DNA of 58,902 nt. Source: Candidatus Uhrbacteria bacterium (lineage in GTDB: Bacteria > Patescibacteriota > Patescibacteriia > UBA9934). Below the pieces are notes generated by a model. That model ran no database searches. It was given only the letters and a program-made list of their open reading frames with translations, and had not been told where the DNA came from. Shown piece by piece: positions 2,444 through 58,902 of this stretch (within the stretch, counting starts at the first letter, position 1; the number at the start of each line of letters is the position of its first letter). Location: NCBI GenBank assembly GCA_903848275.1, contig CAINGB010000030.1:1-58902 (forward strand), in the 5' to 3' direction. Position numbers and translations under genes: made by a program.

Positions 2444-2583
2444 GTGAGAATTAATTCAAGTCCCGGTCTCGATGAGGCCGGGACTTGTTGTTTGCGGAAA
2501 AGAAGATGCCGACTACCCGCGAGGAGTAGTCGGCACCGAGGGAGCACGACGACTCGTCAGAACTGGTGCGCGGCGCCAGTTCG

Positions 2584-4409: not shown

Positions 4410-4659
4410 AGAGAGACGCTTCGTTGATGATATTTGTTTTCTAGCTGCGCCTCGTCAACCGTACCGGCTGGCTCACCTCGTATGACTCGGGGGCCGGCAC
4501 AGGGCCAAGGCTGGCGTCGTCAACAAACATCATCAACAAATCGGTGTTAAGGTTAAGGTAAGTATAGCACAAGCGACGAGGGTAAAAAAGAAAGAACCCC
4601 GCCGCGCAGTTGCGGAGGGGTTCAGTCCAGGCCGTACGAGGACGGCGTGGGAGACGCGG

Positions 4660-5542: not shown

Positions 5543-5619
5543 TGGTGAGGCTTGAGGGACTCGAACCCCCGACCTTCTGGTTCGAAGCCAGACGCTCTAT
5601 CCAGCTGAGCTAAAACCTC
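5543..5619 (-). tRNA. tRNA-Arg (anticodon TCG), CCA encoded
   Basis: Hand-folded cloverleaf: acceptor GAGGTTT/AAGCCTC, anticodon loop CTTCGAA, T-loop TTCGAGT. Confidence 0.95.
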
Positions 5620-5835
5620 TCACTTACCGGACAGTCTTCCACTCGGTTTCGTGAAAAACTATCTCACCTTCGTTCTCGACTGTCCGCCACTCGCGTCGCC
5701 TCGCTGAAGCTCGGCGGTGGCTCGAGGCTCGTAACTGATAAGTAACTCCCCGATATTAGCTCAAATATTGACTTTGGTCAATGAGTGTGGCATTCTTTGC
5801 CTCGTCAGATAACACCATAAACGCCCAGGCATTGG

Positions 5836-11368: not shown

Positions 11369-12061
11369 TTACCACCCCTTGGCAGCCAGACCGGCGGCGG
11401 CGGCGCTGATTTGGGCTTCTTGTTTGCTGCTGCCGTGACCTTCGGCGACCAGGTCTTTGCCGAGATAGACACCGATGGTGAATTGCTTTTGGTGATCCGG
11501 GCCTTCTTCGCTCAGGACTTTATAGCTCGGTGTAATGGATGAACGTGACTGGGCGGCTTCTTGGAAGCGGCTCTTAGGATCCAGGTAGGAACGATCTTTG
11601 AGGATGAGGTCGAGCTTGGTGACGACCACGCGGAGAATGAATTCCTTGACCACCTCCCAGCCGAAGTCGTTATAGATGGCGCCGATGATGGCCTCCATGG
11701 CGTCGGCCAAGATGGTACGACGAGCTTTGGAGTTCACGTCGCGCTCCTCGCCTTTACTCAAGTACAAGAATGGTTCGACGCCGAGCGTGATGGCCACGTC
11801 GGCCAAGCTTTCGCCGTTAACCAAAGCGCTGCGCCAGGTGGTCAACTCCCCTTCTTCGTTGTCGAAGTTGTTGTAGAGATGTTCGGTGACGACCAGCTCC
11901 AGCACGGCGTCGCCCAAAAATTCGAGGCGCTCGTTGTGCATCAACGGAAATGACGGATGCTCGTTCAAGTAGCTACGGTGGACTACGGCTTGCTCTAAAT
12001 GACCGTCCGCTTTGAATGATACGCCGAGCGCTTTGGCTAGTAATGAGATGTCTTTTTGCAT
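11369..12061 (-). CDS. rnc: ribonuclease III
   Basis: 230 aa from MQKDISLL; NERLEFLGDAVLE catalytic signature and C-terminal dsRBD. Confidence 0.9.
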   Translation of the reverse strand: MQKDISLLAKALGVSFKADGHLEQAVVHRSYLNEHPSFPLMHNERLEFLGDAVLELVVTEHLYNNFDNEEGELTTWRSALVNGESLADVAITLGVEPFLYLSKGEERDVNSKARRTILADAMEAIIGAIYNDFGWEVVKEFILRVVVTKLDLILKDRSYLDPKSRFQEAAQSRSSITPSYKVLSEEGPDHQKQFTIGVYLGKDLVAEGHGSSKQEAQISAAAAGLAAKGW

Positions 12062-12077
12062 AAATGTGAATCGATCC

Positions 12078-12218
12078 GTCAACGCGAGACTCGGGGAGTC
12101 ACTTCTTTTCTCCGTCGGGCGTTTTGACGATCGACAATTATTATTGAATGTGAATTGTCGACATAAAAACGCGCGTCCCTCGGTCGACAGAAGTGACATC
12201 CCGCTCGTCTTCGTTGAC
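12078..12218 (-). repeat. long covarying hairpin element, copy 1 (fills nusB-rnc spacer)
   Basis: Arms gtcaacgcgagactcggggagtcact (12078-12103) and agtgacatcccgctcgtcttcgttgac (12192-12218); 20-nt core identical to copy at 57452-57471. Confidence 0.6.
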
Positions 12219-12703
12219 TACGGGCTCGGCTGCTTTACATGCTTTGATTCGTTCTTATCCGCCTCCTTGATTTCGCCCGCTTCGACCATACCCTTGTAGA
12301 CCGCACCGAGGACGCCGTTCACGAATTTACCCGAAGCGTCGCCGCCAAAGGTTTTACCAAGTTCGATGGCTTCGTTGATGGCAACTTTGGAAGGAATGGC
12401 ACTGTCGTATTTAAGTTCGTACATGCCGAGGCGCAAAATGTTGCGATCCATGACAGTCATACTGGCCACGGTCCAGTTAGGAGCAAAGCGTTCGAGGTCG
12501 GCGTCGAGTTCGGCGACCTTACTGACGATAGACTCAACTTGGCGCTCGACGTAGCCGCCGTCGTCGAAGTCTTTGGCGAATTCCTGCTTAACGTAGGCGA
12601 CTAGTTCGGGGATGCGACTCGTGTCCTGGCCGCGAAAGTCCCATTCGTAGAGGGCTTGCATGGCCATGGTGCGAGCGAGATGGCGATTAGACATAGGTAA
12701 CAC
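12218..12703 (-). CDS. nusB: transcription antitermination factor NusB
   Basis: 161 aa; [14 protein letters not shown] and [13 protein letters not shown] are NusB-like. Confidence 0.85.
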
Positions 12704-12767: not shown

Positions 12768-13073
12768 TTACTCAGCCTTTTTTGCGGCTTTCTTGGCCTT
12801 TGGAGCTGCGGCAGCTTTTGGTGCCTTAGCAACCTTGGCTACTTTCTCCGCCTTAGGAGCAGCAACCTTGGTGACTTTGAGCTTGCGGGCGACAGCGTCG
12901 ACGCTACCTTTGGCGGTTCGGCCATTGTAGTTATGACACTTAGGGCAAGCGTGATGAGCCAACACGTCGGCGCTACAGACCTTACATTTATCAATGATAA
13001 CGGCCTTGAGCGCGTGGTGACTGCGGCGTCGGCGAACCTTGGAACGGGATGATCGGAATGACGGTAATGGCAT
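12768..13073 (-). CDS. rpmF: 50S ribosomal protein L32 with Lys/Ala-rich C-terminal tail
   Basis: MPLPSFRSSRSKVRRRRSHHALK and CxxC...CPKC zinc knuckle; tail AAPKAEKVAKVAKAPKAAAAPKAKKAAKKAE. Confidence 0.85.
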   Translation of the reverse strand: MPLPSFRSSRSKVRRRRSHHALKAVIIDKCKVCSADVLAHHACPKCHNYNGRTAKGSVDAVARKLKVTKVAAPKAEKVAKVAKAPKAAAAPKAKKAAKKAE

Positions 13074-14839: not shown

Positions 14840-15988
14840 TTATATCCTCCCAGCTTGGCCAACCTGGCTCATTTTACGCACTATTTCTACTAGTTCATTG
14901 CCTTTGGCGAGGGGTTGGCCTGGAAGATTGGTGCCGTTTGGACTGCCCTTACGACTGTAACCGCTAGACATACCAGCAGCGTTTTGGATAGTCACGGTAC
15001 ACAGACCGAAGAGACGCTCGACTAGACTTTGCTTGATAAGGACGTCCTGGATGGATGAATATGGCAGGTGGGTTTCGCGTTTGCTGATTATGCCGGTACG
15101 GACTTCCAAGAAGTTGGGGGTGAAGACCCAGGAGAAATTGGCTTTCCAGAGCAAGGCACCGCCGACTTGGAGACCAAAAATGGTGACGAAGAGAATAATA
15201 ATTATAACCAGCATGATGAAACCGGCGGCTGAGGCTGATAAGTTAGGGAGAAATTGGAAACCGAAGAAAATGACAAGCACGACTGTTGAGAAGATGGAGC
15301 CGATGATGTTGCTGATAATCCATTTGGGACTGATGGGGAAAGTTTCGGAGGAGACGTTCGTCGAGCTCAGCTCGATCTTTTGGTTCGCGGCCAAAGCTGA
15401 GCTTTGGCTTGGCTCGCCTGAGAGCGGGCGGGGGGCGGTGACCCCGCCTATGGTGCCGGAGTTGATGCTTGAGAGGAGAAAGTTTTTTAGGGCGTCGGCG
15501 GTCGCGGCGTCGACACCGTCAATGTGGGCTTCGATGCCGCTTGTGGCCGTGGCGCTGGCAATGTGCACGTCAAAGAGGCCCATGATGCGGTCGAAGAGAT
15601 CTTGGTCGACGTAAACGTCCTGAATTTTTTGGTACATGACGTGGATTTCCGACGGGGTGAAAACGCCTTTACGGATAGTGAGGTAGCCCTGACCGGCGTC
15701 GTAGAAGTAGGTGCGGATGTAAGCTTTGAAGTACCAAGCGCTCCAGCCGAAAAGAATGGCAGCCATAATTAGACCTCCAAGCAAGAAGAAAATGACGAAG
15801 TTGATGGGGCTTGGCTCGGCATGGCGGTCGATGATGGTTGGCAACATGATGCCGATGATGCCGCAGAACATGGCGAACATGCCGGACACGGTGAAATTAC
15901 CGAAGACGCTGCTCAGCATTTTCTTCCAAAACTTTTTAGGGGCGAGTGGATATTTTTCTTTGAAAGCGGAGGTGACGGCTGGGAACAT
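14840..15988 (-). CDS. membrane protein with two bacterial PH (YdbT-like) domains
   Basis: 382 aa; TM hairpins each followed by a segment like GYLTIRKGVFTPSEIHVMYQKIQDV. Confidence 0.6.
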   Translation of the reverse strand: MFPAVTSAFKEKYPLAPKKFWKKMLSSVFGNFTVSGMFAMFCGIIGIMLPTIIDRHAEPSPINFVIFFLLGGLIMAAILFGWSAWYFKAYIRTYFYDAGQGYLTIRKGVFTPSEIHVMYQKIQDVYVDQDLFDRIMGLFDVHIASATATSGIEAHIDGVDAATADALKNFLLSSINSGTIGGVTAPRPLSGEPSQSSALAANQKIELSSTNVSSETFPISPKWIISNIIGSIFSTVVLVIFFGFQFLPNLSASAAGFIMLVIIIILFVTIFGLQVGGALLWKANFSWVFTPNFLEVRTGIISKRETHLPYSSIQDVLIKQSLVERLFGLCTVTIQNAAGMSSGYSRKGSPNGTNLPGQPLAKGNELVEIVRKMSQVGQAGRI

Positions 15989-16836: not shown

Positions 16837-17607
16837 ATGCGGATTAAAATTGAGGGCGATTGGTCTGGAACAGTGTCATTCTTCATGGGAAGTATGGCTG
16901 TGATCTTGATGACTGCTTTTGTATCTCGGGCCTCGTCTGCGGAAAAACTGTCGGCCAGTGGAGCTCAACATTTGTATATTATTGCGGGACTGTATCTGGT
17001 GGTGGCAGCGATACTCGGTATCATGGCGGCACGAGGACGGACGGTGCCAGATGGTTCAACTGTGGCGACGTGGGAGAATACAGGCTTTGATTTTTGGGGG
17101 AATATCATGTCGACTATTGTCCTGTGGGCCATGGCGATGGGTACAGAAATATTTTTGATTGAGGGCCAGAGCGGCGATATAAAAGCTTCAATAATGGTGC
17201 CGGCAATCGTCCTGCTGGTGGCGGTATGGGGTATAGCTTGGTTAAATTTTGGCGCGAGAATAATTGTTTTTACGCCTAAAAAAGAGGTTATTGTCATGAA
17301 AGGTAGGCCGCTTACTTTTATTCGGAAAACGTATAAACCACAAGATTGGTTGGGGCTGCACGTGTCATGGCAACAGGGCTACAATGGCGGTATGTATCGA
17401 AGTAGTCCAGATAACCTTTACTTTGTATGGGGTGTATATGATGGCGGCGTTATAAAATTGAATACGGTGGCTATCCCGCAAGAGACCAAACGAGCCACAG
17501 CGCTGCAGATGGTGCATGAACTGGTAGAAGAAACAGCAGAAAATGTAGGCTTGCCAGTGCCACCCTGGCCAAACGATAAAGATATTTACTTGAACTTGTG
17601 GAAATAA
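16837..17607 (+). CDS. hypothetical membrane protein
   Basis: 256 aa, about 4 TM helices then a soluble domain. Confidence 0.55.
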   Translation: MRIKIEGDWSGTVSFFMGSMAVILMTAFVSRASSAEKLSASGAQHLYIIAGLYLVVAAILGIMAARGRTVPDGSTVATWENTGFDFWGNIMSTIVLWAMAMGTEIFLIEGQSGDIKASIMVPAIVLLVAVWGIAWLNFGARIIVFTPKKEVIVMKGRPLTFIRKTYKPQDWLGLHVSWQQGYNGGMYRSSPDNLYFVWGVYDGGVIKLNTVAIPQETKRATALQMVHELVEETAENVGLPVPPWPNDKDIYLNLWK

Positions 17608-17638
17608 CAAGTCCCGGACTCCTGGAGTCCGGGACTTG
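17608..17638. repeat. 31-nt perfect palindrome caagtcccggactcc-t-ggagtccgggacttg (intergenic copy, terminator position)
   Basis: Perfect inverted symmetry around t17623; lies between convergent genes 16837..17607 and gyrA. Confidence 0.85.
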
Positions 17639-17653
17639 AATTTGACTGAACTT

Positions 17654-23590: not shown

Positions 23591-23643
23591 ATAGTTTTTG
23601 TTACAATCGCGTTAGTAAGAGTAGTCTATCATCAACTCCCAGC

Positions 23644-23674
23644 GTCGACCAACACCGGGTGTTGATTATGAAGA
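23644..23674 (+). repeat. 31-nt hairpin motif gtcgaccaacaccgggtgttgattatgaaga, copy a
   Basis: 54 nt upstream of minus-strand gene start 23590; stem caacac/gtgttg. Confidence 0.7.
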
Positions 23675-23680
23675 TGAGAG

Positions 23681-23689
23681 TGTTACAAT
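23681..23689 (+). promoter_or_regulatory. extended -10 box TGtTACAAT, 9 nt before ATG 23699 (leaderless); TTGATT 16 nt upstream
   Basis: tgttacaat at 23681-23689; ttgatt at 23662-23667. Confidence 0.5.
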
Positions 23690-27110: not shown

Positions 27111-27170
27111 AGCTAATTCTATAGACGGCAAAATTAGCGAAATGTTACACCGATAAATTCAACTCTTAGC

Positions 27171-27201
27171 GTCGACCGACCCTTAGGGTTGATTATGAAG
27201 A
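27171..27201 (+). repeat. 31-nt hairpin motif, copy b (gtcgaccgacccttagggttgattatgaaga)
   Basis: Stem changed to cgaccc/gggttg (pairing kept); 61 nt upstream of minus-strand ATG 27110. Confidence 0.65.
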
Positions 27202-27253
27202 AATGAAACACCGCCCCGCGAAGGACTCCACGGGGAGGTGCTTCGAGAGGCGG

Positions 27254-34134: not shown

Positions 34135-34555
34135 TTTCACGGGCGTCTTCACCAAGATGATTGATGGTGACGGTGATGTCTGGCGCTAGGTCGACGCTGA
34201 CGGCGTTGGGCCATTCGATGAGGAGAATAGTGTCGGCGCGACGCTCGTCAGCTAAGGATAAAGCTGTCAGCTCGGCGTCAGTTTGCAGGCGGTAGAGATC
34301 GACGTGAATGATTCGACTGATTTTGTGATTGACCAGTCCCGGACTCCTGGAGTCCGGGACTTGATATTCGTTCATGACGGAAAAGGTGGGGCTTTTGACG
34401 CGATCGGTCACGCCGAGGGCGAGTGCTAGGCCTTGGACGAAGGTGGTTTTGCCGGCACCCAAGTCGCCAATGAGGGCAATAACTTCCCCGCCGTGGAGGG
34501 TGCGGGCGAGGTCGGCGGCAATGGCTTGAGTTTCCGCAGCGTTATTGGTGATCAT
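34115..34555 (-). CDS. tsaE: tRNA t6A biosynthesis ATPase TsaE, with an in-frame palindrome insertion
   Basis: 146 aa; [27 protein letters not shown]; 20-nt convergent overlap with rsmE. Confidence 0.85.
34335..34361. repeat. 27-nt perfect palindrome agtcccggactcc-t-ggagtccgggact inside the tsaE coding sequence
   Basis: Identical to the core of 17608..17638; encodes VPDSRSPGL in the tsaE frame. Confidence 0.85.
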
Positions 34556-37234: not shown

Positions 37235-38743
37235 ATGGACGCTCAATCGCACCAGGATTTAATGGATGATTTCGCCGAGTTGCGGGCAATTGTTGGTGAT
37301 AATATTAAACGATTAGGGAGATTTGAAAGACCACTGGGGCGGCACGCTCGGCCAGGGACGGCCAGAGTACTAGGTGATATGACCGATAGGACCAATGAGA
37401 CCTATAGGAAATTGGAAAATGACTTGAAGGCGTTGCAAGCCGCCAGAATAGAAGAAAATGCGGAGGAGTTGATTGCCGAAAAGAAACGAATAGCCTACGT
37501 GGTGCGGAGTTTGCAGGGCGTGACTGGCTCGCTCCTCGCGGCGACCGATTGGCAGGCGCCAACGTTCGCGAGTTCGGAGCAGTCACAGGCTGGGACGCAG
37601 ACGGGCCAGATTACGGGGACGGTTAATGATTACAAACGTGACCACCATGCTGACGCCACAAATTATGAACGACGTTGGCGGCAAGCGTACATTGATGCGC
37701 CGCTGCGGTTCCCTCCGCAAGTTTATGTGACGGCGAGCGGCATGGCGGCGTTTAGCACGGTACTGACGACATTGGCGACGGAGGACAAGATAAACGGGCC
37801 GATTATTGCGGGCAGCGCTTGTTATTTTGAAAATAAGTTATTGCTCGAGAAGTTTTTCCCGGGGCAGATCAGTTACGTCGATGAGATGAACACGGAAAGT
37901 GTGCTGGCGGCGATCAACGAGTTGCAACCAGCGGCGATATTCTTCGATACGCTCGGCAATACGGAGGACGTGGCGGCACCAGATATGGCGAGCTTAGTGC
38001 CGAGAATTATCGAGGAGATTAAGCGACCGACGATTTTAGTGCTAGATACCACGGGGACGGCGACCAGCTACCAGCCACTGCGTGACTTTCCACGGGGACC
38101 GTGTAAGCTCAGTTTGATTGTGGTGGAGAGTTTGCTTAAGTACCATCAGTTTGGCTTTGACCGCGTGAGTGCTGGGCTGATGTGGCGGACTGGACTGACG
38201 CCACTGGGGATTTTTGGCAACCGTATGCACTTGGGGACAGGACTGGTGGATGCTTCCGTGCTCACTTTGCCACAGCCGAATAGAAAGTTGTTCGATAAGA
38301 GGCTGAAACGGATGGGTAGGAATGCGAATTTAGTGGCCAAGGCCCTGGATGATCACGCGCGAACAACAAGGATGACGGCGCTGGCTGAGGTTGTGTACCC
38401 GGGGCTGCCGAGTCACCCGGCTTACGAGTGGATGAGTAAGCGGTATTTTCAGGGTAGTTTCTTGGTGTTTAAGTTAAAGCCGCAATATTGCTTTACGGCG
38501 TACTACAAAAAATTCTTAGCACTGGCCGTAGACGAAGCGCGCCAGGCTGGCGTCGACCTAAACGGTGGTAGTAGCTTTGGTTTTGACACGACACGAGTGT
38601 ATTTGACGGCTTTGTATGCAGCCAAGCACGCCACACCGTTTATTCGGATTAGTGTGGGGACGGAAACGCTGTACGAGGTGGAGAAGTTGATCGCGGTGTT
38701 GACCCGGGCCGTCGATAAACTGGCGTTTAGGTTGCCGCTTTAG
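37235..38743 (+). CDS. divergent Cys/Met-metabolism-type PLP-dependent enzyme with about 130-aa N-terminal extension
   Basis: ASGMAAFSTV, DTLGNT, ESLLKYHQFG (putative PLP lysine). Confidence 0.55.
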   Translation: MDAQSHQDLMDDFAELRAIVGDNIKRLGRFERPLGRHARPGTARVLGDMTDRTNETYRKLENDLKALQAARIEENAEELIAEKKRIAYVVRSLQGVTGSLLAATDWQAPTFASSEQSQAGTQTGQITGTVNDYKRDHHADATNYERRWRQAYIDAPLRFPPQVYVTASGMAAFSTVLTTLATEDKINGPIIAGSACYFENKLLLEKFFPGQISYVDEMNTESVLAAINELQPAAIFFDTLGNTEDVAAPDMASLVPRIIEEIKRPTILVLDTTGTATSYQPLRDFPRGPCKLSLIVVESLLKYHQFGFDRVSAGLMWRTGLTPLGIFGNRMHLGTGLVDASVLTLPQPNRKLFDKRLKRMGRNANLVAKALDDHARTTRMTALAEVVYPGLPSHPAYEWMSKRYFQGSFLVFKLKPQYCFTAYYKKFLALAVDEARQAGVDLNGGSSFGFDTTRVYLTALYAAKHATPFIRISVGTETLYEVEKLIAVLTRAVDKLAFRLPL

Positions 38744-39027
38744 CGCATTCCTACCTTTTCTTTGATCTGCACGACTTCGAGTTGAAGTTCGGTGATTTGC
38801 GGGAGAACTGAGACCTCGAGAATTTCAGCAATGTCAGTCACGATTTCCTTGCACATCTTTTTCATGTCGACGTCTAGCCTGTCTATCCGTGTGTTTAGAC
38901 GGTTTTCAAGTACCTTATTCATGGCGTACATTTCGTCGCGAAGTTCGAGCTTAAAAATGTGATTGTTGGCCTCGAGTAACTCAATCATGAGAGCCCGGAT
39001 GGCCGCCATGTCGTTTTCGTGCAACAT
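38740..39027 (-). CDS. small coiled-coil-like protein, paralog P1
   Basis: 95 aa; C-terminal EIVTDIAEILEVSVLPQITELQLEVVQIKEKVG shared with P2 and P3. Confidence 0.65.
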   Translation of the reverse strand: MLHENDMAAIRALMIELLEANNHIFKLELRDEMYAMNKVLENRLNTRIDRLDVDMKKMCKEIVTDIAEILEVSVLPQITELQLEVVQIKEKVGMR

Positions 39028-39075
39028 AAAAGCAAAGTGAAGAATAAGGCGGGGAGCATCTGGGGAGATGAGGTT

Positions 39076-39084
39076 ATTCTACCA
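39076..39084 (-). promoter_or_regulatory. extended -10 TGgTAGAAT of P1
   Basis: attctacca on the plus strand; conserved position in all three paralogs. Confidence 0.5.
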
Positions 39085-39103
39085 TAAGTTTTAACGACAA
39101 AAA

Positions 39104-39127
39104 AATACCGGCAGAAGCTGGTATTTT
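39104..39127. terminator. hairpin terminator after tRNA-Glu (A-run and T-run on both sides)
   Basis: aaaaaataccggc agaa gctggtatttttt. Confidence 0.7.
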
Positions 39128-39128
39128 T

Positions 39129-39203
39129 TGGTGACTCCAGGGGGAGTCGAACCCCCGTTACAGGCTTGAAAAGCCCGTGTCCTAACCATTAGACGATGGA
39201 GCC
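39129..39203 (-). tRNA. tRNA-Glu (anticodon TTC), CCA encoded
   Basis: Acceptor GGCTCCA/TGGAGTC, anticodon loop TTTTCAA, T-loop TTCGACT. Confidence 0.95.
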
Positions 39204-39223
39204 ATATGGTCAAATGTGCGGGT

Positions 39224-39252
39224 AATATAGTTGATACTAGCCTTTTAGTCAA
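39224..39252 (-). promoter_or_regulatory. tRNA-Glu promoter TTGACT-N17-TATATT
   Basis: Minus-strand ttgact (39247-39252) and tatatt (39224-39229), about 20 nt upstream of the tRNA 5' end. Confidence 0.55.
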
Positions 39253-39270
39253 CCATGAGCTAGTTAGCGT

Positions 39271-39303
39271 AAGAATCCCAGGCTGCATGAGCCTGGGATT
39301 CTT
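39271..39303 (-). terminator. 13-bp hairpin immediately after the P2 stop (no clear U-run)
   Basis: aagaatcccaggc tgcatga gcctgggattctt. Confidence 0.4.
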
Positions 39304-39304
39304 A

Positions 39305-39568
39305 TTACACACCAACCTGCTCCTTCAACCGAGCCACGTCGTATTGTAGTTCGGTAATTTGCGGCAGGACTGAACCGTCGAGAAGTTCGGCGATCTCAGT
39401 AACGATTTCTCGTTTCATAGCCTTAGTAGTGGCGTGGATTTCGTCTCGAATGTCGCGCTTGAGCAGGTGATTATTCTGCTCAACGATATCTTTAACAATA
39501 CCGGGTACAGTGTCCTTGATGATGGTCGTAACAATGGTGGCGATTACCACCTGGTCGTTTTTGGTCAT
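39305..39568 (-). CDS. small coiled-coil-like protein, paralog P2
   Basis: 87 aa; the first 14 codons are nucleotide-identical to P3. Confidence 0.65.
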   Translation of the reverse strand: MTKNDQVVIATIVTTIIKDTVPGIVKDIVEQNNHLLKRDIRDEIHATTKAMKREIVTEIAELLDGSVLPQITELQYDVARLKEQVGV

Positions 39569-39609
39569 AGAGTGAACAAAAAAGAATAAGGTGGGGAGAT
39601 TCTGGGGAT
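39526..39609. repeat. 84-nt direct repeat, left copy (P2 5' CDS plus leader)
   Basis: 83 of 84 nt identical to 40916..40999 by hand alignment (mismatch at 39588/40978). Confidence 0.85.
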
Positions 39610-39616
39610 TGAGGCT

Positions 39617-39625
39617 ATTCTACCA
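39617..39625 (-). promoter_or_regulatory. extended -10 TGgTAGAAT of P2
   Basis: attctacca on the plus strand. Confidence 0.5.
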
Positions 39626-39777
39626 CAAGTTTTAGTTGGTCAAAAATGAGCTGTGCGTATAACAACAAACCCCGTGCTGAGAACAACAGCGTTCCCAGAA
39701 CGGGGCTGTTGCTCGCACAGGGCGAGAGCGATGGTGGTCATCGGTTAATACCACCGGTTGATGCCACGACTGACCGA

Positions 39778-40440
39778 TCAGTGTCGACGCGGGACGGGGT
39801 CGGGGGTGAGGGTGAACGTAGAGGTAGGGGCGGCGGTGGGACGGAATGCCTCCGCCTCATCTTCCTCACGGAACTGTGTCCTCTCGTCCTCCTTGAGGTG
39901 GCTTTCGAGAGTGTTCCGTGTCGACGGGTTGGCCGGCAGGCCGAACACTACCGTCACTGTCGCGAGTGCCTCCTCACGAGTGTAGGAAACGCTGTTGCCG
40001 CAGGTATTGCCTACGTACACTTCGACGAACTCGTCACCCCTGGGCTCGAAGCACAGGACGTCGCCGCTCTCCGCTTTGGAGGTGCACAGCCGATTGCCAT
40101 ACGCGCTGGTCTTCCACCCGCTATAGCTGAAGCGGGGGTGATTTGCGTCCCAGAGCAATTGAGGCCACCAGTGCTGAAGCTGCTCCATGAGCAGAGCCTC
40201 GCTCACGGGGTTTGTGTACCCGCCAGCAGGACTCGCGACCAACTGGGGCACGATCTGGTAGCTTTCCGTCGGGTCGATGACATACGTCTGACACCCTATC
40301 TTCAGCACCAAGGGCGTCGTGTCCAACGGCCGGGGCGATGGGACGTAGACGAACCCAGGCCTCGCGTCGTACTCCTCGATCGACGGCTTTGCTGTCTCCG
40401 GATCACCGGCGAATGCTGCACTCAGAAAAAGAACCATCAT
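39778..40440 (-). CDS. secreted Cys-containing protein (GC-rich insert)
   Basis: 220 aa from MMVLFLSAAFAG; GGAGG 5 nt upstream; antisense ORF 39646..40485 judged spurious. Confidence 0.55.
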   Translation of the reverse strand: MMVLFLSAAFAGDPETAKPSIEEYDARPGFVYVPSPRPLDTTPLVLKIGCQTYVIDPTESYQIVPQLVASPAGGYTNPVSEALLMEQLQHWWPQLLWDANHPRFSYSGWKTSAYGNRLCTSKAESGDVLCFEPRGDEFVEVYVGNTCGNSVSYTREEALATVTVVFGLPANPSTRNTLESHLKEDERTQFREEDEAEAFRPTAAPTSTFTLTPDPVPRRH

Positions 40441-40588
40441 GGGAACCTCCATGCTCGGGAAGAAAAGTCCGAGCTTGTTTTATAACAATAGCAAAAAATA
40501 TGTATTTTGGCAATGGGAAATGGAAGAAAAGTGGCTGTTATGAGCCAAAATTCCAATTTTACTACTACTCAAATAACTCCGCAAACCA

Positions 40589-40612
40589 AATACCAGGCAA
40601 CGGCCTGGTATT
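40589..40612. terminator. hairpin terminator after P3
   Basis: aataccaggc aacg gcctggtatt flanked by A-run and T-run. Confidence 0.65.
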
Positions 40613-40628
40613 CTTTTTGCGAATGAGA

Positions 40629-40958
40629 CTAAACGCCAACCCTTGCTTTTAACAGCGCGACATCGTACCTCAGTTCCGCGATCGGGGTGAGGACGGCGAC
40701 GTCCAAGATTTCGGCGATATCGGAGACGATTTCTGTGCGCATGGTGTGCATGTCGGCACGGAGTTGCTGCATATCCGCTTTTAGTTCACTGCGTAGAGCT
40801 TGTTTGGCGGCATGAATTTCGTCACGCAAATCGAGTTTTAACATGTGATTGTTTTGCTCGATGATATCGGTGACAATGTCCTTGATCATGCCTGGTACAG
40901 TTGTCTGAATGGCGCTCGTAACAATGGTGGCGATTACCACCTGGTCGTTTTTGGTCAT
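40629..40958 (-). CDS. small coiled-coil-like protein, paralog P3
   Basis: 109 aa; same N-terminus MTKNDQVVIATIVT and C-terminal motif as P2. Confidence 0.65.
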   Translation of the reverse strand: MTKNDQVVIATIVTSAIQTTVPGMIKDIVTDIIEQNNHMLKLDLRDEIHAAKQALRSELKADMQQLRADMHTMRTEIVSDIAEILDVAVLTPIAELRYDVALLKARVGV

Positions 40959-40999
40959 AGAGTGAACAAAAAAGAATTAGGTGGGGAGATTCTGGGGAT
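40916..40999. repeat. 84-nt direct repeat, right copy (P3 5' CDS plus leader)
   Basis: See 39526..39609. Confidence 0.85.
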
Positions 41000-43328: not shown

Positions 43329-44756
43329 CTAGCGACGGATGACACCGGAGGCTGGGGCCATTGGGGTTGGTGGCAAGAGGCCAGCGCCGAGTGGGTTGTA
43401 ACCCTTAGCGACCTCGGCACCGTCTAGGAAGCCATCGCCGTCAGTATCTGGATTATTAGGATCCGTGCCGTACTTGGCCTCTTGTTTGGCAGTCAGGCCG
43501 TCGTTGTCGACGTCGAGATTGTCGGCGGCAGCTTGAGCTGCTTGGTCGGCCATGATTTTAGCAAAGACGTCCTGAATACTAGAGGCGTTTTCTGGAGCGA
43601 CAACGTCGGGCGTGGTGTTAATATCGGTCAGAGTTAAGGAGAACACAATATTTAATGGGCCTTCAAAGTTGTCTTTGAGTTTAGCATTAGCGGCGGTGTC
43701 GACGGTTTCGGTAAGGGTTATTTTGTGGATGAAGTTGTCGGAAGTACCAACCCAGACTTCGCCACTCATGGGGCCAAGGGTGCTAATTAGATCTGTCAGT
43801 TGGGTTAGATCGCGTTCATTCAGAGCTGTTGGCTGCTTGAGGTGAACATCTTTGAGGGTGGCAATGAGGGCTGCATTGTCGACATTGAACTTGTAGTCGT
43901 GAACCGGGAGGCCAGCCACGGTGGTATTGGCACCGGCGGTGAAGCCAGTGAGAATGGTCGGCAAGGCGGCGACAAAGATATCGTTCACGGCTTTCTTGTC
44001 TTCAGCTGTAAGATTGAGGGAGGAATTGACGTCGGCTAAGGCCTTAGTGCTGTCGAGCTGCTTTTTAGCTTCGGCAATGTCGACGAAAATCCATTGGTCG
44101 GCGAGACTCGAAAGAATGCTTTGGAAAGCGACGGGAATAGCGGCGAGGCCAGTAGTTTCGCCGTTAGGAGGCATGGCAACGCCACCAACCTTAAAGTAAA
44201 GCTTATCGTCGAGGCTACGGAAGCCGAGTGAGTATGGACCTTGATCAGTACCGTCGTTAGTAGCAGTCAGACTGGCGTTGGCACTGACTGTAGATTGCGT
44301 AGCGGCACCGTCGATGAGAAGGTTGACGGATATGTCAGTTGCGCCTTTGCCCGTGTCTTTGTCCTTAGCGGGCAGAACTTTACCGCTGGCTGTGATGTCG
44401 GCCTGGTAAATAGCGTTCTTGACCGTGGCCATGGCGGCTTGCACGTTACTCATGATGCGGGCTGGGCTGTGGGCTTGTTGCCAGTAGAAGTAGCCAGCAA
44501 AAGCGCCGCCGGCTAAAAGTAAGACGAAAACTATTAAAAAAATGATGAGCTTGAGATGACTGCGACGACGAGGCTCGGTTGTTATCGAGGGCACGACTGG
44601 TACTGAGTTCTGGCGGGGGGCGGTGACCCCGCCTATTTCTGGTGAGCTGTAAGCTGGCATGGCTGGAGTGGGAGCCGAGAGAACTTCGGGCATGGAGGGT
44701 TCGGGAATGCTGGCAAAAGGGTCGACGGCTTCAACTTTTGGCGTTTCGTCAAACAT
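43329..44756 (-). CDS. membrane-anchored extracellular protein with C-terminal calcium-binding Asp-rich repeats
   Basis: 475 aa; one TM helix after a Pro-rich N-terminus; DVDNDGLT...DPNNPDTDGDGFLDGAEV. Confidence 0.6.
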   Translation of the reverse strand: MFDETPKVEAVDPFASIPEPSMPEVLSAPTPAMPAYSSPEIGGVTAPRQNSVPVVPSITTEPRRRSHLKLIIFLIVFVLLLAGGAFAGYFYWQQAHSPARIMSNVQAAMATVKNAIYQADITASGKVLPAKDKDTGKGATDISVNLLIDGAATQSTVSANASLTATNDGTDQGPYSLGFRSLDDKLYFKVGGVAMPPNGETTGLAAIPVAFQSILSSLADQWIFVDIAEAKKQLDSTKALADVNSSLNLTAEDKKAVNDIFVAALPTILTGFTAGANTTVAGLPVHDYKFNVDNAALIATLKDVHLKQPTALNERDLTQLTDLISTLGPMSGEVWVGTSDNFIHKITLTETVDTAANAKLKDNFEGPLNIVFSLTLTDINTTPDVVAPENASSIQDVFAKIMADQAAQAAADNLDVDNDGLTAKQEAKYGTDPNNPDTDGDGFLDGAEVAKGYNPLGAGLLPPTPMAPASGVIRR

Positions 44757-45823: not shown

Positions 45824-45875
45824 ATTGCGTACATCATACCAAATTCTAATAACTCGTAACATGGCAACACTTAGA

Positions 45876-45905
45876 GTCGACCAACACTTAGTGTTGATTT
45901 GCAGA
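45876..45905 (+). repeat. hairpin motif, copy c (gtcgaccaacacttagtgttgatttgcaga)
   Basis: 53 nt upstream of minus-strand ATG 45823; extra caacacttag half-copy at 45865-45874. Confidence 0.6.
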
Positions 45906-54132: not shown

Positions 54133-54311
54133 AGACTCATTTAAGGCCAAGGCTCGGGGTGCGAAAGTTCGTCGGGTCCTGCCGCTGCGGACCCCGCTGG
54201 GTGCTCGCAAGCTGCGCGCCCAAGCAGGGACCTCCCTTCGCGTCACCCGACTAGAGGCTTTTGGCCTGCCCCTCGCTACTTGGCCTTACAGGCTCGTAAC
54301 AGTTTACTCTA
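54133..54311 (-). other. 179-nt GC-rich structured spacer inside the suf operon
   Basis: aaggccaag (54142-54150) pairs with cttggcctt (54281-54289); several internal GC hairpins; no credible ORF. Confidence 0.5.
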
Positions 54312-55697: not shown

Positions 55698-55726
55698 AAT
55701 GGGTCTATCCTAACACAACAGTGAGG

Positions 55727-55757
55727 GTTGACCAACACCGGGTGTTGATTATGAAGA
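55727..55757 (+). repeat. 31-nt hairpin motif, copy d (gttgaccaacaccgggtgttgattatgaaga)
   Basis: 30 nt upstream of the sufB ATG 55697; its right end supplies the last codons and stop of rnhB. Confidence 0.7.
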
Positions 55758-56369
55758 ACAGAAAGTAACCCGATGGTGCGGGGTGAGGCCGTGAGTCGAG
55801 ATGGCGGCGAAGTGGGCGGCGGTGCCGTAGCCTTTGTGGGAAGAGAAGCCGTAAGCGGGATATTCGAGAGAGAGTTGTTCGAGGAGATTATCGCGGTAGA
55901 CTTTAGCGAGAATGCTGGCGGCGGCTATTGATAAGATTTTGGCGTCGCCGTGAATGACGGATTTTTGAGGGATGATGAGATTAGGGACGCAGAATTTGCC
56001 GTCGACGAGGAGATAAGAGTTGGTGAGATCATCGATGGGCAAGGATTCGATGGCGCGGCGCATGGCCAGGAGCGAAGCGTGGTGGATGTTGAGATTATCG
56101 ACTTCCGCGGCACTAGCTGAGGCGATGGCGAAAGAGATGGCGCGGCGGCGGAGATAGGCGTCGGCCTCCGCGCGTTGCTTGGCGCTCAAGGTTTTGCTGT
56201 CGCGGATGATGGCCCTGGCGTCGTCCTTGGGCATTATCGACGGGAGAATGGCGGCGGCAGCGACTACGGGGCCAGCTAGGCAACCGCGACCAACTTCATC
56301 CACGCCGATGATGGTGGCATGACCGGCGCGGCGGAGGGAGTTTTCGGTGCGGAGGGTTAAGAGGGGCAT
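55749..56369 (-). CDS. rnhB: ribonuclease HII
   Basis: 206 aa; GVDEVGRGCLAGPVV and DSK motifs. Confidence 0.9.
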   Translation of the reverse strand: MPLLTLRTENSLRRAGHATIIGVDEVGRGCLAGPVVAAAAILPSIMPKDDARAIIRDSKTLSAKQRAEADAYLRRRAISFAIASASAAEVDNLNIHHASLLAMRRAIESLPIDDLTNSYLLVDGKFCVPNLIIPQKSVIHGDAKILSIAAASILAKVYRDNLLEQLSLEYPAYGFSSHKGYGTAAHFAAISTHGLTPHHRVTFCSS

Positions 56370-57402: not shown

Positions 57403-57445
57403 GTTGTCGACGAGGTGAGAGGCGCGGCCAAATCCCTCTTATGCT

Positions 57446-57514
57446 AAACAGAACGCGAGACTCGGGGAGTCCCTCGGTCGACGAAAGGGACACCCCACTC
57501 GTCTTCGTTCTGTT
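57446..57514 (-). repeat. long covarying hairpin element, copy 2 (compact form)
   Basis: aacagaacgcgagactcggggagtccct ... agggacaccccactcgtcttcgttctgtt; outer stem differs from copy 1 but still pairs. Confidence 0.6.
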
Positions 57515-57618
57515 ACAGTGCGTCATGACGGAAACGATCCGTTGCATGGGCATAAAAGGCGAAACGACCTGCAGCCCACGGGAGGGCGGCAAGTCGTTCG
57601 AGACGAGGGCTGGCTCGA

Positions 57619-58059
57619 CTAGTCCTGGGAGCTAGCGAGGATGCGGTCGATGGTGGCGATGAGGATGTTTCCAGGATCGCCGCTCAGCAGGTTGCACTGC
57701 TGCACCAGAGGCGGGGTACGAACACTGGGCGCCAGAAATTTGCGGCCGTGCGTAGCGAGGATGACGGACAGGCGCTCACGACCGGTGTGCCGCAGTGCGC
57801 AGATGGCGGGGAGGACCGCTTCCGCCAGAGCGATCTCGTCTGGTTCGTTCGCCGCCAAGTGGAAGACGAACACGACGTCGACATCGAAGGTGAGGTAGGT
57901 CGCGACGATCTCGGCGATGCCTGGCCTCAGCTCACCAGCTGAGAGATACGGAATGAAGCGCCCGGTAGCACCAAGACAGTCCATGAGGGTGTTGCTGAAC
58001 TGGTCGAAGCGGGTGCTGGCGACAAAGACGATGGGCTTACGAGTAGAAAGGACGGGCAT
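57619..58059 (-). CDS. hypothetical alpha/beta protein (GC-rich insert)
   Basis: 146 aa; GAGG 5 nt upstream; alternating beta-strand-like (IVFVAS, VVFVFHL, SVILATHG) and helical segments. Confidence 0.5.
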   Translation of the reverse strand: MPVLSTRKPIVFVASTRFDQFSNTLMDCLGATGRFIPYLSAGELRPGIAEIVATYLTFDVDVVFVFHLAANEPDEIALAEAVLPAICALRHTGRERLSVILATHGRKFLAPSVRTPPLVQQCNLLSGDPGNILIATIDRILASSQD

Positions 58060-58073
58060 GAGAACCTCGGGGA

Positions 58074-58086
58074 CCAGCTCAGCTGG
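58074..58086. repeat. CCAGCTCAGCTGG palindrome, copy 4
   Basis: Context cctcggggaccagctcagctggccg, in the 5' leader of 57619..58059. Confidence 0.65.
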
Positions 58087-58146
58087 CCGTTGGGTGATTT
58101 GTGCGTCGACATACTAGCCTGATGTTAGCTAAAATGTCAAACAAAA

Positions 58147-58180
58147 AGCCCTCGTTGACCAGGAGGCCGCGAGGGTTTTT
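58147..58180 (-). terminator. rho-independent terminator about 100 nt downstream of the 16S 3' end
   Basis: Minus strand: aaaaaccctcg cggcctcctggtcaa cgagggcttttt. Confidence 0.65.
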
Positions 58181-58282
58181 GTACTGAAATAAACCAGTGA
58201 AGAATTGACAACTTGGTGATTACAACGTCCGTTACCAACAATCTTGCGAAAGTTGGCCTCGACCTTAAAGGGTCTATCCCTA

Positions 58283-58902
<620 letters not shown>

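What the first reader, a model, noticed from the sequence alone, without database searches (positions are those of the whole stretch)
12062..12218. Long hairpin element filling the nusB-rnc spacer, repeated near the 16S gene with compensatory stem changes
The whole 156-nt spacer between the nusB stop and the rnc start is an irregular hairpin. Its arms are gtcaacgcgagactcggggagtcact and agtgacatcccgctcgtcttcgttgac, with inner hairpins such as gtcgacaatt/aattgtcgac. A compact 69-nt version lies at 57446..57514. It shares a 20-nt identical core (aacgcgagactcggggagtc), the cctcggtcgac box and ctcgtcttcgtt. The outer stem differs between the copies (gtcaacg/cgttgac versus aacagaacg/cgttctgtt), and so does the inner stem (agtcact/agtgac versus gtccct/agggac). 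Both stems still pair in both copies. Both copies lie within minus-strand transcription units. A long dsRNA stem directly in front of the RNase III gene recalls the known RNase III autoregulatory cleavage of the rnc leader in E. coli. The second copy sits between a GC-rich ORF and the tRNA/16S region. Hypotheses: an RNase III substrate or processing element, or a small structured mobile repeat.
Basis: partly seen in the sequence, partly recalled or inferred. Interest (0 to 1): 0.65.

Follow-up and report, generated by a model that had tools for sequence, protein, structure and literature searches.

The report
Dispersed hairpin repeat inserted between nusB–rnc
The long hairpin in front of the RNase III gene is one copy of a roughly 150-base, non-coding, self-pairing repeat that is scattered through the genomes of a few related Uhrbacteria (candidate-phyla-radiation bacteria); it was inserted between two genes that abut in relatives, so it is a small mobile-type repeat and not an ancestral RNase III control leader.

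Summary
A 141-nt imperfect hairpin fills the 156-nt nusB–rnc spacer. A 69-nt deletion derivative lies at 57446-57514. Both share an exact 20-nt core and have compensatory stem changes.

It is not a locus-specific leader. The core occurs 33 more times in three other Uhrbacteria MAGs (about 9-15 copies per genome), always between genes. Contigs often break at it, and it has 3-9x excess depth in the source lake metagenomes.

Five related loci, one of them in a species that carries the repeat elsewhere, have nusB and rnc 3-6 nt apart. Only the window organism and a UBA11707-like species carry the insertion.

Across 14 full copies, 48 pairs are 97% paired and 12 show double compensatory changes. 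The lower stem and its bulges never vary.

Orientation ignores gene direction but follows GC skew: 33 of 37 copies have the same strand on the G-rich strand (p≈1e-6).

Best reading: a new REPIN/MITE-like hairpin element, probably handled as single-stranded DNA at the replication fork. The mobiliser is unidentified. Two RAYT-type transposases are present, but each is flanked by different palindromes.

RNase III cleavage of the transcribed hairpin remains possible but untested. It would be a by-product.

The parts
12072..12230 (+). Copy A: full repeat unit (family 1), long form
   Evidence: nhmmer profile hit 12072-12230. CM hit 12076-12227 at 171 bits. Contigs of the source metagenomes branch at 12076-12087 and 12215-12227.
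12078..12218 (+). Hairpin proper (outer stem GTCAACG / CGTTGAC), 141 nt
   Evidence: Folds at -63 kcal/mol, z about -6.4 on either strand. 48 consensus pairs, 12 of them with compensatory changes.
12081..12100 (+). Invariant 20-nt core AACGCGAGACTCGGGGAGTC (left lower stem; contains the mini-palindrome GACTC-GGG-GAGTC)
   Evidence: Exact in both window copies and in 33 sites in three MAGs. Invariant columns in alignment A2.
12196..12215 (+). Conserved right lower stem GACATCCCNCTCGTCTTCGTT, with the unpaired A of GACAT and the unpaired N
   Evidence: Invariant except for N in 14 copies. Columns 138 and 143 are unpaired in the consensus structure.
12216..12228 (+). Conserved right flank GAC-TACGGGCTCG. 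On the minus strand it reads ..GAGCCCGTAG|TCAACG and supplies the last codons and the TAG stop of nusB.
   Evidence: The right flank is conserved in 18 GAC-type right flanks. nusB ends ...KQPSP* inside it. Empty-site comparison.
12218..12703 (-). nusB (its 3' end was remodelled by the insertion)
   Evidence: Pfam NusB, 112 bits. The C-terminal tail differs from the empty-site relatives.
11369..12061 (-). rnc (RNase III), directly downstream of the element on the mRNA
   Evidence: Pfam Ribonucleas_3_3, Ribonuclease_3 and dsrm. 7998 homologues.
57442..57521 (+). Copy B: deletion derivative (hairpin 57446-57514), CAG..CTG end type
   Evidence: CM hit 57447-57521 at 55.6 bits. Alignment with copy A. 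The deletion lies between GTCCCT repeats of the long form.

Best explanation
Shown:
- Copy A is one member of a family of about 150-bp, non-coding, imperfect-palindrome repeats. The family is dispersed in the intergenic regions of a small clade of Candidatus Uhrbacteria.
- The family has an invariant lower stem with conserved unpaired bases. Its upper stem varies only through pair-preserving changes.
- Copy A was inserted between nusB and rnc, which abut (3-6 nt apart) in relatives. The insertion gave nusB a new C-terminal tail and stop codon.
- It has since been kept with its pairing intact in two species whose rnc genes are 12% diverged.
- Copy B is an internally deleted derivative.
- Copies lie with one fixed strand on the G-rich strand of the chromosome, regardless of the direction of neighbouring genes.

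Inferred:
- The element is a REPIN/BIME- or PATE-like hairpin element, recognised and moved as a folded single strand exposed at the replication fork.
- A hairpin-binding enzyme reads the invariant lower stem and its bulges. The upper stem only has to pair.
- The most likely enzyme is a Y1 (HUH) transposase of the RAYT or IS200 type acting in trans. Two vertically inherited RAYT genes exist in these genomes, but the mobiliser has not been identified.
- In the nusB-rnc transcript the element must form an interrupted double-stranded RNA of about 48 bp. This may incidentally be cut by RNase III and uncouple the two genes.
For: Multicopy and dispersed:
- 33 exact core matches in three MAGs, many at contig ends.
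- 38 left ends (2 of them in the window) and 24 right ends were catalogued.
- Depth over the element is 3-9x that of its flanks, and contigs with different flanks meet there in the source metagenomes.

Intergenic, in every gene context.

Insertion polymorphism:
- Filled in the window and in UBA11707-like L009 and L046.
- Empty in L049 (a repeat-bearing species with rnc 88.8% identical), L033, L034/35 and L036/37.

Structure under selection:
- 97.2% of cells are paired, and 12 pairs carry double changes.
- 0 of 500 shuffles reach the observed value; slid controls give 2 or fewer.
- The orthologous copies are 94.3% identical, against 88.0% for rnc and 84.8% for nusB. Their differences lie in the loop or bulges, or form one compensatory T-A to A-T swap.

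Strand polarity:
- 33 of 37 copies have the same strand on the locally G-rich strand, p about 1e-6.
- There is no bias toward the coding strand (16 of 37).
- GC skew is uniformly positive across the window despite mixed gene directions.
- Three other repeat families show the same polarity.

Candidate enzymes:
- RAYT-1 matches NCBIfam REP_Tyr_transpos at 92 bits, above the cut-off of 80. RAYT-2 matches Pfam Y1_Tnp.
- Both sit in conserved synteny.

REP-like details:
- GTAG lies directly 5' of the hairpin foot on the minus strand in 12 of 24 copies (CTAC).
- The conserved stem mismatches match what TnpA-REP requires in E. coli (PMC3333891).
- Lagging-strand-template targeting is documented for IS200/IS605 (PMC5027513 and PMC6006769).
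Against: - No transposase gene is flanked by this element in any locus held. Both RAYT types are flanked by other palindromes: GGGGTCAGGTC... for RAYT-1 and species-specific GC palindromes for RAYT-2.
- RAYT-1 is far more widespread (7424 homologues) than the repeat, which is found in four species.
- At the nusB-rnc site the junctions fit a 3-bp TCG duplication. That would point to a DDE-type enzyme, not a Y1 enzyme. Over all copies no duplication exceeds chance.
- Both strands fold equally well, so folding energy does not single out an active strand.
- That the G-rich strand is the leading strand is assumed from general bacterial behaviour. It was not verified for these genomes.
- Some copies at orthologous sites are not independent, so the effective n for the polarity test is nearer 30.
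- Movement itself has not been observed.
Confidence: 0.65

Rival explanations
1. Classical MITE. The element is a non-autonomous double-strand DNA transposon whose long imperfect terminal inverted repeats are bound by a DDE transposase supplied in trans. It makes a short target duplication on insertion. On this view the hairpin is only a consequence of the inverted repeats.
For: - Small, non-coding, multicopy and intergenic, with arms that are imperfect inverted repeats.
- At the nusB-rnc site the empty allele has a single TCG and both filled alleles have TCG at each junction.
- The right junction is TCG or TCA in most copies, which could reflect a preferred target.
Against: - No general target duplication: the mean longest flanking direct repeat is 4.83, against 4.75 for mismatched flank pairs.
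- No IS carrying these termini appears among 33 core matches in three genomes.
- Compensatory changes along the whole stem are not required for transposase binding to two separate ends.
- The strong polarity relative to GC skew is not typical of cut-and-paste DDE elements.
Confidence: 0.2
2. Host-maintained structural element. The family is kept by selection for a cellular role. Candidates are a strand-polar chromosome signal, a binding site for a nucleoid or replication protein, or an RNA hairpin that insulates or stabilises neighbouring transcripts. It would spread rarely or by recombination, not by active transposition.
For: - The 20-nt core is identical in 35 copies from four species whose genes differ by 12% or more.
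- The orthologous copy is kept with pairing intact.
- Some sites are filled in two species (L002/L003, L018/L027).
- Strand polarity resembles that of polar chromosomal motifs.
- REPINs are described as vertically inherited and long-lived (papers listed).
Against: - Presence and absence differ between close species, and the same intergenic site holds different repeat families in different species.
- Deletion derivatives, chimeric ends and nested modules look like decay of a mobile element.
- No intrinsic-terminator T-run or promoter lies in the element.
- This reading is not exclusive of the best explanation.
Confidence: 0.15
3. Dedicated RNase III leader. The hairpin evolved, or is retained, at this locus as a double-stranded RNA site through which RNase III cleaves its own nusB-rnc transcript and autoregulates, as in the E. 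coli rnc leader.
For: - A stable interrupted duplex of about 48 bp lies directly 5' of rnc on the mRNA-sense strand (-59 to -63 kcal/mol).
- This copy is conserved at 94% in a second species.
- Hairpins of Neisseria Correia elements bind RNase III and can be cleaved or protected by it (abstract of PMC2649163).
Against: - Five related loci have no spacer at all, so the ancestral arrangement lacks it.
- The same element sits next to unrelated genes in both orientations.
- The sequence constraint is family-wide.
- No transcript data exist.
Confidence: 0.1
4. Chance similarity, or a fragment of a recent larger duplication.
For: None beyond the initial two-copy observation.
Against: Expected chance matches are 0.02. 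Flanks outside about 150 nt are unrelated. There are dozens of copies elsewhere.
Confidence: 0.01

Closest known systems
REPINs / BIMEs mobilised by RAYT (REP-associated tyrosine transposases)
   Same: - Non-coding intergenic hairpins built from two inverted arms, tens of copies per genome.
- Conserved stem mismatches, and a GTAG-type tetranucleotide 5' of the hairpin foot on one strand.
- Persistence at orthologous sites across species.
- Single-copy, syntenic RAYT genes in the same genomes (PMC3333891; PMC3116915).
   Different: - At about 150 nt with about 48 pairs, the hairpin is much longer than a REP (30-40 nt), and the arms are not simple REP units.
- Neither RAYT gene found is flanked by this family; each has its own palindromes.
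- The copy number (about 9-15) is lower than the several hundred REPs reported for E. coli K12 (PMC3333891).
IS200/IS605-derived palindrome-associated elements and single-strand 'peel and paste' transposition
   Same: Structured ends, no regular target duplication, and an orientation fixed relative to the replication strand, as reported for IS608 and ISDra2 (PMC5027513, PMC6006769).
   Different: The element is one continuous hairpin, not two subterminal hairpins. No tnpA or tnpB copy with these ends was found. A conserved target tetra- or pentanucleotide could not be established.
Correia repeat-enclosed elements (Neisseria MITEs)
   Same: Elements of about 100-155 bp with inverted-repeat ends, sitting between genes and co-transcribed with them. 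Their RNA hairpins are RNase III substrates and alter expression of neighbouring genes (PMC2649163, PMC2229807, PMC10969869).
   Different: No sequence similarity. The TA duplication and IHF-binding core of Correia elements (the TA duplication from my own knowledge; IHF binding is in the abstract of PMC2649163) have no counterpart. No promoter-like hexamers are created here. RNase III cleavage is untested here.
E. coli rnc leader hairpin (RNase III autoregulation)
   Same: A stable hairpin immediately 5' of rnc on its mRNA.
   Different: Here the hairpin is an inserted copy of a dispersed repeat and is absent from most relatives. Knowledge of the E. coli leader comes from my own memory of the literature and was not re-read here.
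Integron attC sites
   Same: Imperfect palindromes of similar length with AAC...GTT at the stem base, conserved extrahelical bases and strand-specific biology.
   Different: The RYYYAAC / GTTRRRY boxes are not met (NGTCAAC / GTTGACT; CAGAAC / GTTCTG). There are no cassette arrays and no integrase. Copies are scattered between housekeeping genes.

Membership tests
REPIN/REP-RAYT system | Short non-coding palindromic repeat, many dispersed intergenic copies | tested here: met
   36 left ends in three MAGs plus 2 in the window, all intergenic. Excess depth in the source metagenomes.
REPIN/REP-RAYT system | Two inverted REP units forming one hairpin, with conserved mismatches in the stem | tested here: inconclusive
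   The element is a single long imperfect palindrome with conserved bulges. The arms are about 70% alike, and only the left arm holds a clear mini-palindrome, GACTC-GGG-GAGTC.
REPIN/REP-RAYT system | Conserved tetranucleotide (GTAG in E. coli) 5' of the hairpin foot | tested here: inconclusive
   CTAC on the + strand (GTAG on the minus strand) abuts the foot in 12 of 24 right ends. The others are one-base variants. The requirement in E. coli is taken from PMC3333891.
REPIN/REP-RAYT system | The cognate RAYT gene is flanked by the same repeat | tested here: not met
   RAYT-1 (L021, L040, L041) is flanked by GGGGTCAGGTC... inverted repeats. RAYT-2 (L025, L042, L043) is flanked by other GC palindromes. 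The CM finds no family-1 copy in L040-L045.
REPIN/REP-RAYT system | A RAYT gene is present in the genomes that carry the repeat | tested here: met
   NCBIfam REP_Tyr_transpos at 92.2 bits (cut-off 80) in UBA11707. Pfam Y1_Tnp in CAYHFQ. A RAYT-1 homologue lies on a DeMMO3_42 contig. None lies in the 58.9-kb window.
MITE (DDE-type) | Terminal inverted repeats, small size, no ORF | tested here: met
   ORFs that cross the element are read-through artefacts.
MITE (DDE-type) | Target-site duplication of fixed length | tested here: inconclusive
   A possible 3-bp TCG duplication at the nusB-rnc site. No signal beyond chance over 23 copies.
MITE (DDE-type) | A parent IS with the same termini | tested here: not met
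   No locus has left and right ends enclosing a gene. Long gaps between ends are assembly N-runs. Only 8-kb pieces of the MAGs were available.
RNase III autoregulatory rnc leader | Hairpin conserved upstream of rnc in relatives | tested here: not met
   The spacer is 3-6 nt in L033, L034, L035, L036/37 and L048/49. It is filled only in the window and the UBA11707-like genome.
RNase III autoregulatory rnc leader | Cleavage of the leader by RNase III | not testable with these tools
   No RNA runs hold this sequence.
Integron attC | R''/R' boxes (RYYYAAC / GTTRRRY), arrays, integrase | tested here: not met
   The sequence at the stem base does not fit the boxes. Copies are solitary between housekeeping genes.
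Any Rfam RNA family | Covariance-model match | tested here: not met
   At gathering scores only tRNAs and 16S match. There is no match with E up to 1 in 11950-12350.

The most novel reading that the evidence does not exclude
Family 1 and at least three other repeat families in these tiny genomes all keep the same polarity relative to GC skew. One of the other families (family 2) ends in the same junction motif as family 1. Together they may form a previously undescribed, strand-polar system of single-strand hairpin elements in candidate-phyla-radiation bacteria. The system would be maintained by purifying selection and served by domesticated RAYT enzymes. Individual copies would be co-opted by the host, for example the nusB-rnc copy as an RNase III-cleaved module that uncouples and autoregulates rnc.
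Probability: 0.15. Interest if true: 0.65.

Novelty: new member of a known kind. Interest (0 to 1): 0.4.

Why it matters
- It replaces an attractive but locus-specific story (an RNase III autoregulatory leader) with a better-supported one: a new family of small hairpin repeats in Uhrbacteria. Full-text searches found no description of such elements in Patescibacteria.
- The family offers an unusually clean natural data set. It has an invariant protein-recognition stem, a covarying upper stem, filled and empty orthologous sites, and strong replication-strand polarity.
- These features allow study of how REPIN/MITE-like elements persist in very small, streamlined genomes.
- They also allow a test of whether the widespread syntenic RAYT genes of these bacteria act on more than their own flanking palindromes.
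- Practically, the repeats explain contig breaks and N-gaps in MAGs of this clade.

Tried and rejected
- Rfam gave no family, at gathering scores or at E up to 1.
- Metagenome contigs gave 0 hits for the exact core. The degenerate right-end pattern gave 2 hits, both chance matches inside coding sequence (a GTPase-like DIPLVFV motif).
- Viral contigs gave 0 hits.
- No RNA-seq runs are available.
- The scan found no promoter-like site. The only terminator-like site inside the element is the core's own 5-bp mini-hairpin, followed by a T-rich but not T-run tract.
- Folding energy does not distinguish the two strands.
- A systematic search for target duplications found nothing beyond chance.
- The idea that GGCTCG is a duplicated target was not upheld. 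The empty nusB-rnc site lacks it, so the GGC came in with the element.
- The idea that the GTC/GAC and CAG/CTG triplets come from a palindromic target (GTCGAC or CAGCTG) was dropped. The flanks beyond the triplets are also conserved within each type, L001 is a CAG..GAC hybrid, and one orthologous site carries different types in two species.
- attC membership was rejected on the box sequences.
The hits were then verified with Pfam and NCBIfam.
It was obtained through the cluster listing instead.

Full report
**1. The observation**

On the minus strand, rpmF (12768-13073), nusB (12218-12703) and rnc (11369-12061) follow each other.

The 156-nt nusB-rnc spacer (12062-12217) is almost entirely one imperfect hairpin, 12078-12218.
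- It folds at -62.9 kcal/mol on the mRNA-sense strand and -63.7 on the + strand. Both lie more than 6 SD below shuffled sequences.
- A 69-nt version lies at 57446-57514 and folds at -37 kcal/mol (z -4.7).
- The 20-nt core AACGCGAGACTCGGGGAGTC is exact in both copies, against 0.02 matches expected by chance.
- The two copies differ by pair-preserving changes in the outer stem (GTC/GAC vs CAG/CTG) and the inner stem (A-T vs C-G).

- Copy B is a deletion derivative of the long form, produced between two GTCCCT repeats.
- Copy B lies between the terminator of a + strand tRNA-Ile/Phe/Pro cluster and the stop of minus-strand ORF 57619-58059. It is not clearly inside a transcription unit.

**2. It is a dispersed repeat family**

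A scan of one genome per bacterial species found the exact core 33 times. All hits lie in three MAGs:
- Candidatus Uhrbacteria UBA11707 (DOZH01).
- ERP119702_co3_211 (CAYHFQ01, labelled 'Gammaproteobacteria').
- DeMMO3_42 (JAGVNL01).

Many hits are at contig ends or beside N-gaps, as expected for a repeat that breaks assemblies. A relaxed search of the fetched loci gave 36 left ends and 22 right ends there, about 9-15 copies per genome. The long form of about 135-138 nt between the boxes is the norm.

The window's organism occurs in lake-water metagenomes. There, depth over the element is 3-9x that of its flanks, and contigs with different flanking sequences meet at 12076-12087 and 12215-12227. 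These positions define the unit as about 12072-12230.

Every copy is intergenic. Among fully assembled copies the contexts are about 5 co-directional with both neighbours, 4 antisense, 4 between convergent genes and 3 between divergent genes.

No true copies were found in JGI metagenome contigs or viral contigs. Rfam has no matching family.

**3. It is an insertion**

RNase III homologues gave a graded series of relatives. The nusB-stop to rnc-start distance is:
- 5 nt in L033 (rnc 83% nt identity).
- 6 nt in L034 and L035 (73%).
- 3 nt in L036 and L037 (71%).
- 3 nt in L048/L049. Its rnc is 88.8% identical to the window's.

Only the UBA11707-like genome shares the filled state. L009 is truncated at a contig end. 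L046 is complete and has the same 156-nt spacer.

The empty and filled alleles align as follows, in the element's + orientation:
- Empty: CATAAATTAT|TCG|GCTTC
- Filled: ...TCG|ATCC(G)GTCAACG ... GTTGACTACRGGC|TCG|GCT...

The inserted DNA therefore includes the conserved flanks ATCC..GTC and GAC-TACRGGC. A 3-bp TCG duplication is possible. The minus-strand reading of the right flank (..CCGAGCCCGTAG) now encodes the last residues and the stop codon of nusB.

Over 23 copies, flanking direct repeats are no longer than in mismatched flank pairs (4.83 vs 4.75). A general target duplication is therefore not established.

**4. Anatomy and selection**

Fourteen full copies from four genomes were aligned. 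RNAalifold gives one unbranched hairpin of 48 pairs.
- The lower stem (AACGCGAGACTCGGGGAGTC with GACATCCCNCTCGTCTTCGTT) is invariant in sequence. This includes an unpaired A and an unpaired variable base on the 3' arm.
- The upper stem and apical hairpin vary through double changes, for example ACTTCT/AGAAGT vs CCTTTC/GAAAGG, CGTTTT/AAAACG vs CATTTT/AAAATG, and GACAATT/AATTGTC vs GATATTT/AAATATC vs GCCGATT/AATCGAC.
- 97.2% of cells are paired and 12 pairs carry double changes. None of 500 column shuffles reaches the observed covariation, and slid controls give at most 2 such pairs.

The orthologous copies in the window and in L046 are 94.3% identical, against 88.0% for rnc and 84.8% for nusB. 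Their differences lie in the apical loop or bulges, or form one compensatory T-A to A-T swap. With at least 12% neutral divergence, about 11 changes would be expected in the 96 paired positions. My binomial estimate for seeing two or fewer is about 5e-4.

Both strands fold equally well (mean -59.5 vs -61.4 kcal/mol as RNA).

There are two end types: GTC..GAC followed by TACRGGCTCG, and CAG..CTG followed by YTACARTGC. L001 is a hybrid of the two. The orthologous L002/L003 site carries different types in two species.

A covariance model finds only the two copies in the window. It also finds a weak, diverged relative at 8819-8952 in L036 (20.8 bits) and L037 (22.8 bits). That relative keeps CTCGGGAGT, ACATCCC and the unpaired A.

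**5. Strand polarity**

The window has positive GC skew (0.08-0.21) along its whole length, although gene directions are mixed.

For 37 non-overlapping copies, the skew of the ±4 kb around each copy was read on the element's own strand. It is positive in 33 (mean +0.16; binomial p about 1e-6). The fraction of ORF bases on that strand averages 0.45, and exceeds one half for 16 of 37.

Orientation therefore follows the chromosome's strand asymmetry, not transcription. Three other repeat families behave the same way: 9 of 11, 5 of 5 and 3 of 3.

Some copies are orthologous and so not independent. With about 30 independent insertions the bias remains strong.

In most bacteria the G-rich strand is the leading strand, which has the sequence of the lagging-strand template. 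This is general knowledge and was not verified here. Fixed polarity of this kind is documented for single-strand transposition of IS200/IS605 elements at the replication fork (PMC5027513, PMC6006769).

**6. Candidate enzymes**

A tblastn lead pointed to two Y1 (HUH) transposase genes inside the fetched loci.
- RAYT-1 is at L021 6939-7829. It scores 92 bits against NCBIfam REP-associated tyrosine transposase, above the cut-off of 80.
- RAYT-2 is at L025 3482-4072. It scores 26.7 bits against Pfam Y1_Tnp, above the cut-off of 23.
- RAYT-1 lies in conserved murB-RAYT-RNase H synteny in L021 and L040; the DeMMO3_42 homologue in L041 has different neighbours (Thy1, dUTPase). In L021, L040 and L041 it sits between inverted repeats that start GGGGTCAGGTC. 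These repeats also occur as free palindromes.
- RAYT-2 lies after dnaG-rpoD and before bipA; L045 has three further genes in that interval. In L025, L042 and L043 it is flanked on both sides by species-specific GC palindromes. In L025 these are the same palindromes as the window's 2445, 17596 and 34321 repeats.

Neither gene is flanked by family 1, and none lies in the window. The genomes therefore have the right kind of enzyme, but the defining REPIN criterion (the RAYT is flanked by its own repeat) is not met for this family.

Two further features are suggestive. GTAG lies 5' of the hairpin foot on the minus strand in half of the copies. The conserved stem mismatches resemble what E. coli TnpA-REP needs (PMC3333891). 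These are leads, not tests.

**7. Interpretation**

- The element is a new REPIN/MITE-like hairpin repeat.
- Shown: it is multicopy, inserted, structurally constrained and strand-polar.
- Inferred: it is recognised as a folded single strand by a hairpin-binding enzyme, most plausibly a Y1 transposase acting in trans.
- Unknown: which enzyme, and whether copies still move.
- The RNase III idea survives only as a possible consequence. Once transcribed within nusB-rnc, the element must form a long interrupted duplex like those of Correia elements, which bind RNase III and can be cleaved or protected by it (abstract of PMC2649163). No RNA data exist to test this. The scan found no promoter in the element and no terminator beyond the core's own mini-hairpin.

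**8. Novelty**

Full-text searches found no description of such repeats in Patescibacteria. REPINs, BIMEs and MITEs are well known elsewhere.

I file this as a new member of a known kind, of moderate interest. The strand polarity shared by several co-resident families, and the conservation of the inserted copy across species, are the features worth following up.

Noticed in passing
window 54144-54298: A second dispersed repeat family (about 155 nt, GC-rich). It has 10 hits in other loci, including L003, L021, L026, L027, L032 and L041. It begins ..AGGCTCGGGG and ends ..TTACAGGCTCG, the same right-end motif as family 1. It keeps the same polarity to GC skew (9 of 11). Its fold is not better than shuffles (z about -1.2).
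   Followed up: partly
window 4438-4522 and 5619-5724: Two more short dispersed repeats: family 3 (about 85 nt, 4 hits in other genomes) and family 4 (about 105 nt, 2 hits). In related genomes they sit next to a recurring module ..GACACGGCAGTCGCTCGC, and in L032 one is nested inside a family-1 copy. The same intergenic site holds different families in different species (L027 vs L007, L031 vs L006).
   Followed up: partly
window 2445-2493, 17596-17643, 34321-34368: Near-identical GC palindromes (AAGTCCCGGACTCCTGGAGTCCGGGACTT) with A/T runs on either side. The same palindrome flanks both sides of a RAYT-type transposase gene in L025. Its orthologues in L042 and L043 are flanked by species-specific versions. 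This is a likely genuine REP-RAYT pair.
   Followed up: partly
L021 6904-7822; L040 5956-6870; L041 5955-6870; L020 3885-4020; L016 3798-3989: A roughly 290-aa RAYT (7424 homologues in Patescibacteria) sits between about 25-nt inverted repeats whose outer 11 nt (GGGGTCAGGTC) are conserved and whose inner part covaries. L021 and L040 share murB-RAYT-RNase H synteny; L041 has different neighbours. The same repeats occur as free palindromes elsewhere.
   Followed up: partly
window 1-58902: GC skew is uniformly positive (0.08-0.21) over the whole window despite mixed gene directions. Several related loci reach 0.25-0.37, which is unusually strong strand asymmetry. The 16S gene lies on the C-rich strand.
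   Followed up: partly
window 57619-58902: The 3' end of the 16S rRNA gene (58284, minus strand) is followed not by a spacer tRNA and 23S but by a GC-rich 146-aa ORF (57619-58059) with no Pfam match. The rRNA genes appear unlinked, or the ORF may be spurious.
   Followed up: partly
window 23633-23686, 27160-27213, 45865-45899, 55716-55769: Four copies of a 35-54-nt repeat, CAACnnnnAGnGTCGACCAACACCGGGTGTTGATTATGAAGA, containing a small hairpin (CAACAC-CGG-GTGTTG). Its role is unknown.
   Followed up: no
window 38743-40999: Three paralogous short ORFs (38743-39078, 39308-39619, 40632-40976) with a 127-nt direct repeat (39483-39609 and 40873-40999, 87% identical) around tRNA-Glu.
   Followed up: no
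window 15418-15451 and 44603-44636: A 34-nt repeat, CTGAGnnnnGGCGGGGGGCGGTGACCCCGCCTAT, present twice in the window and also in L027.
   Followed up: no
L036/L037 8819-8952 (-): A diverged hairpin in a more distant Uhrbacteria relative, between gyrA and nusB. It keeps the CTCGGGAGT / ACATCCC motifs and the unpaired A of family 1 (CM 20.8 bits in L036, 22.8 in L037). This suggests a wider superfamily.
   Followed up: partly
L003, L005, L007, L015, L021, L026, L032 (UBA11707 contigs): N-runs of about 150-250 nt sit exactly inside family-1 copies. These are scaffolding gaps caused by the repeat, so copy lengths there cannot be read.
   Followed up: yes
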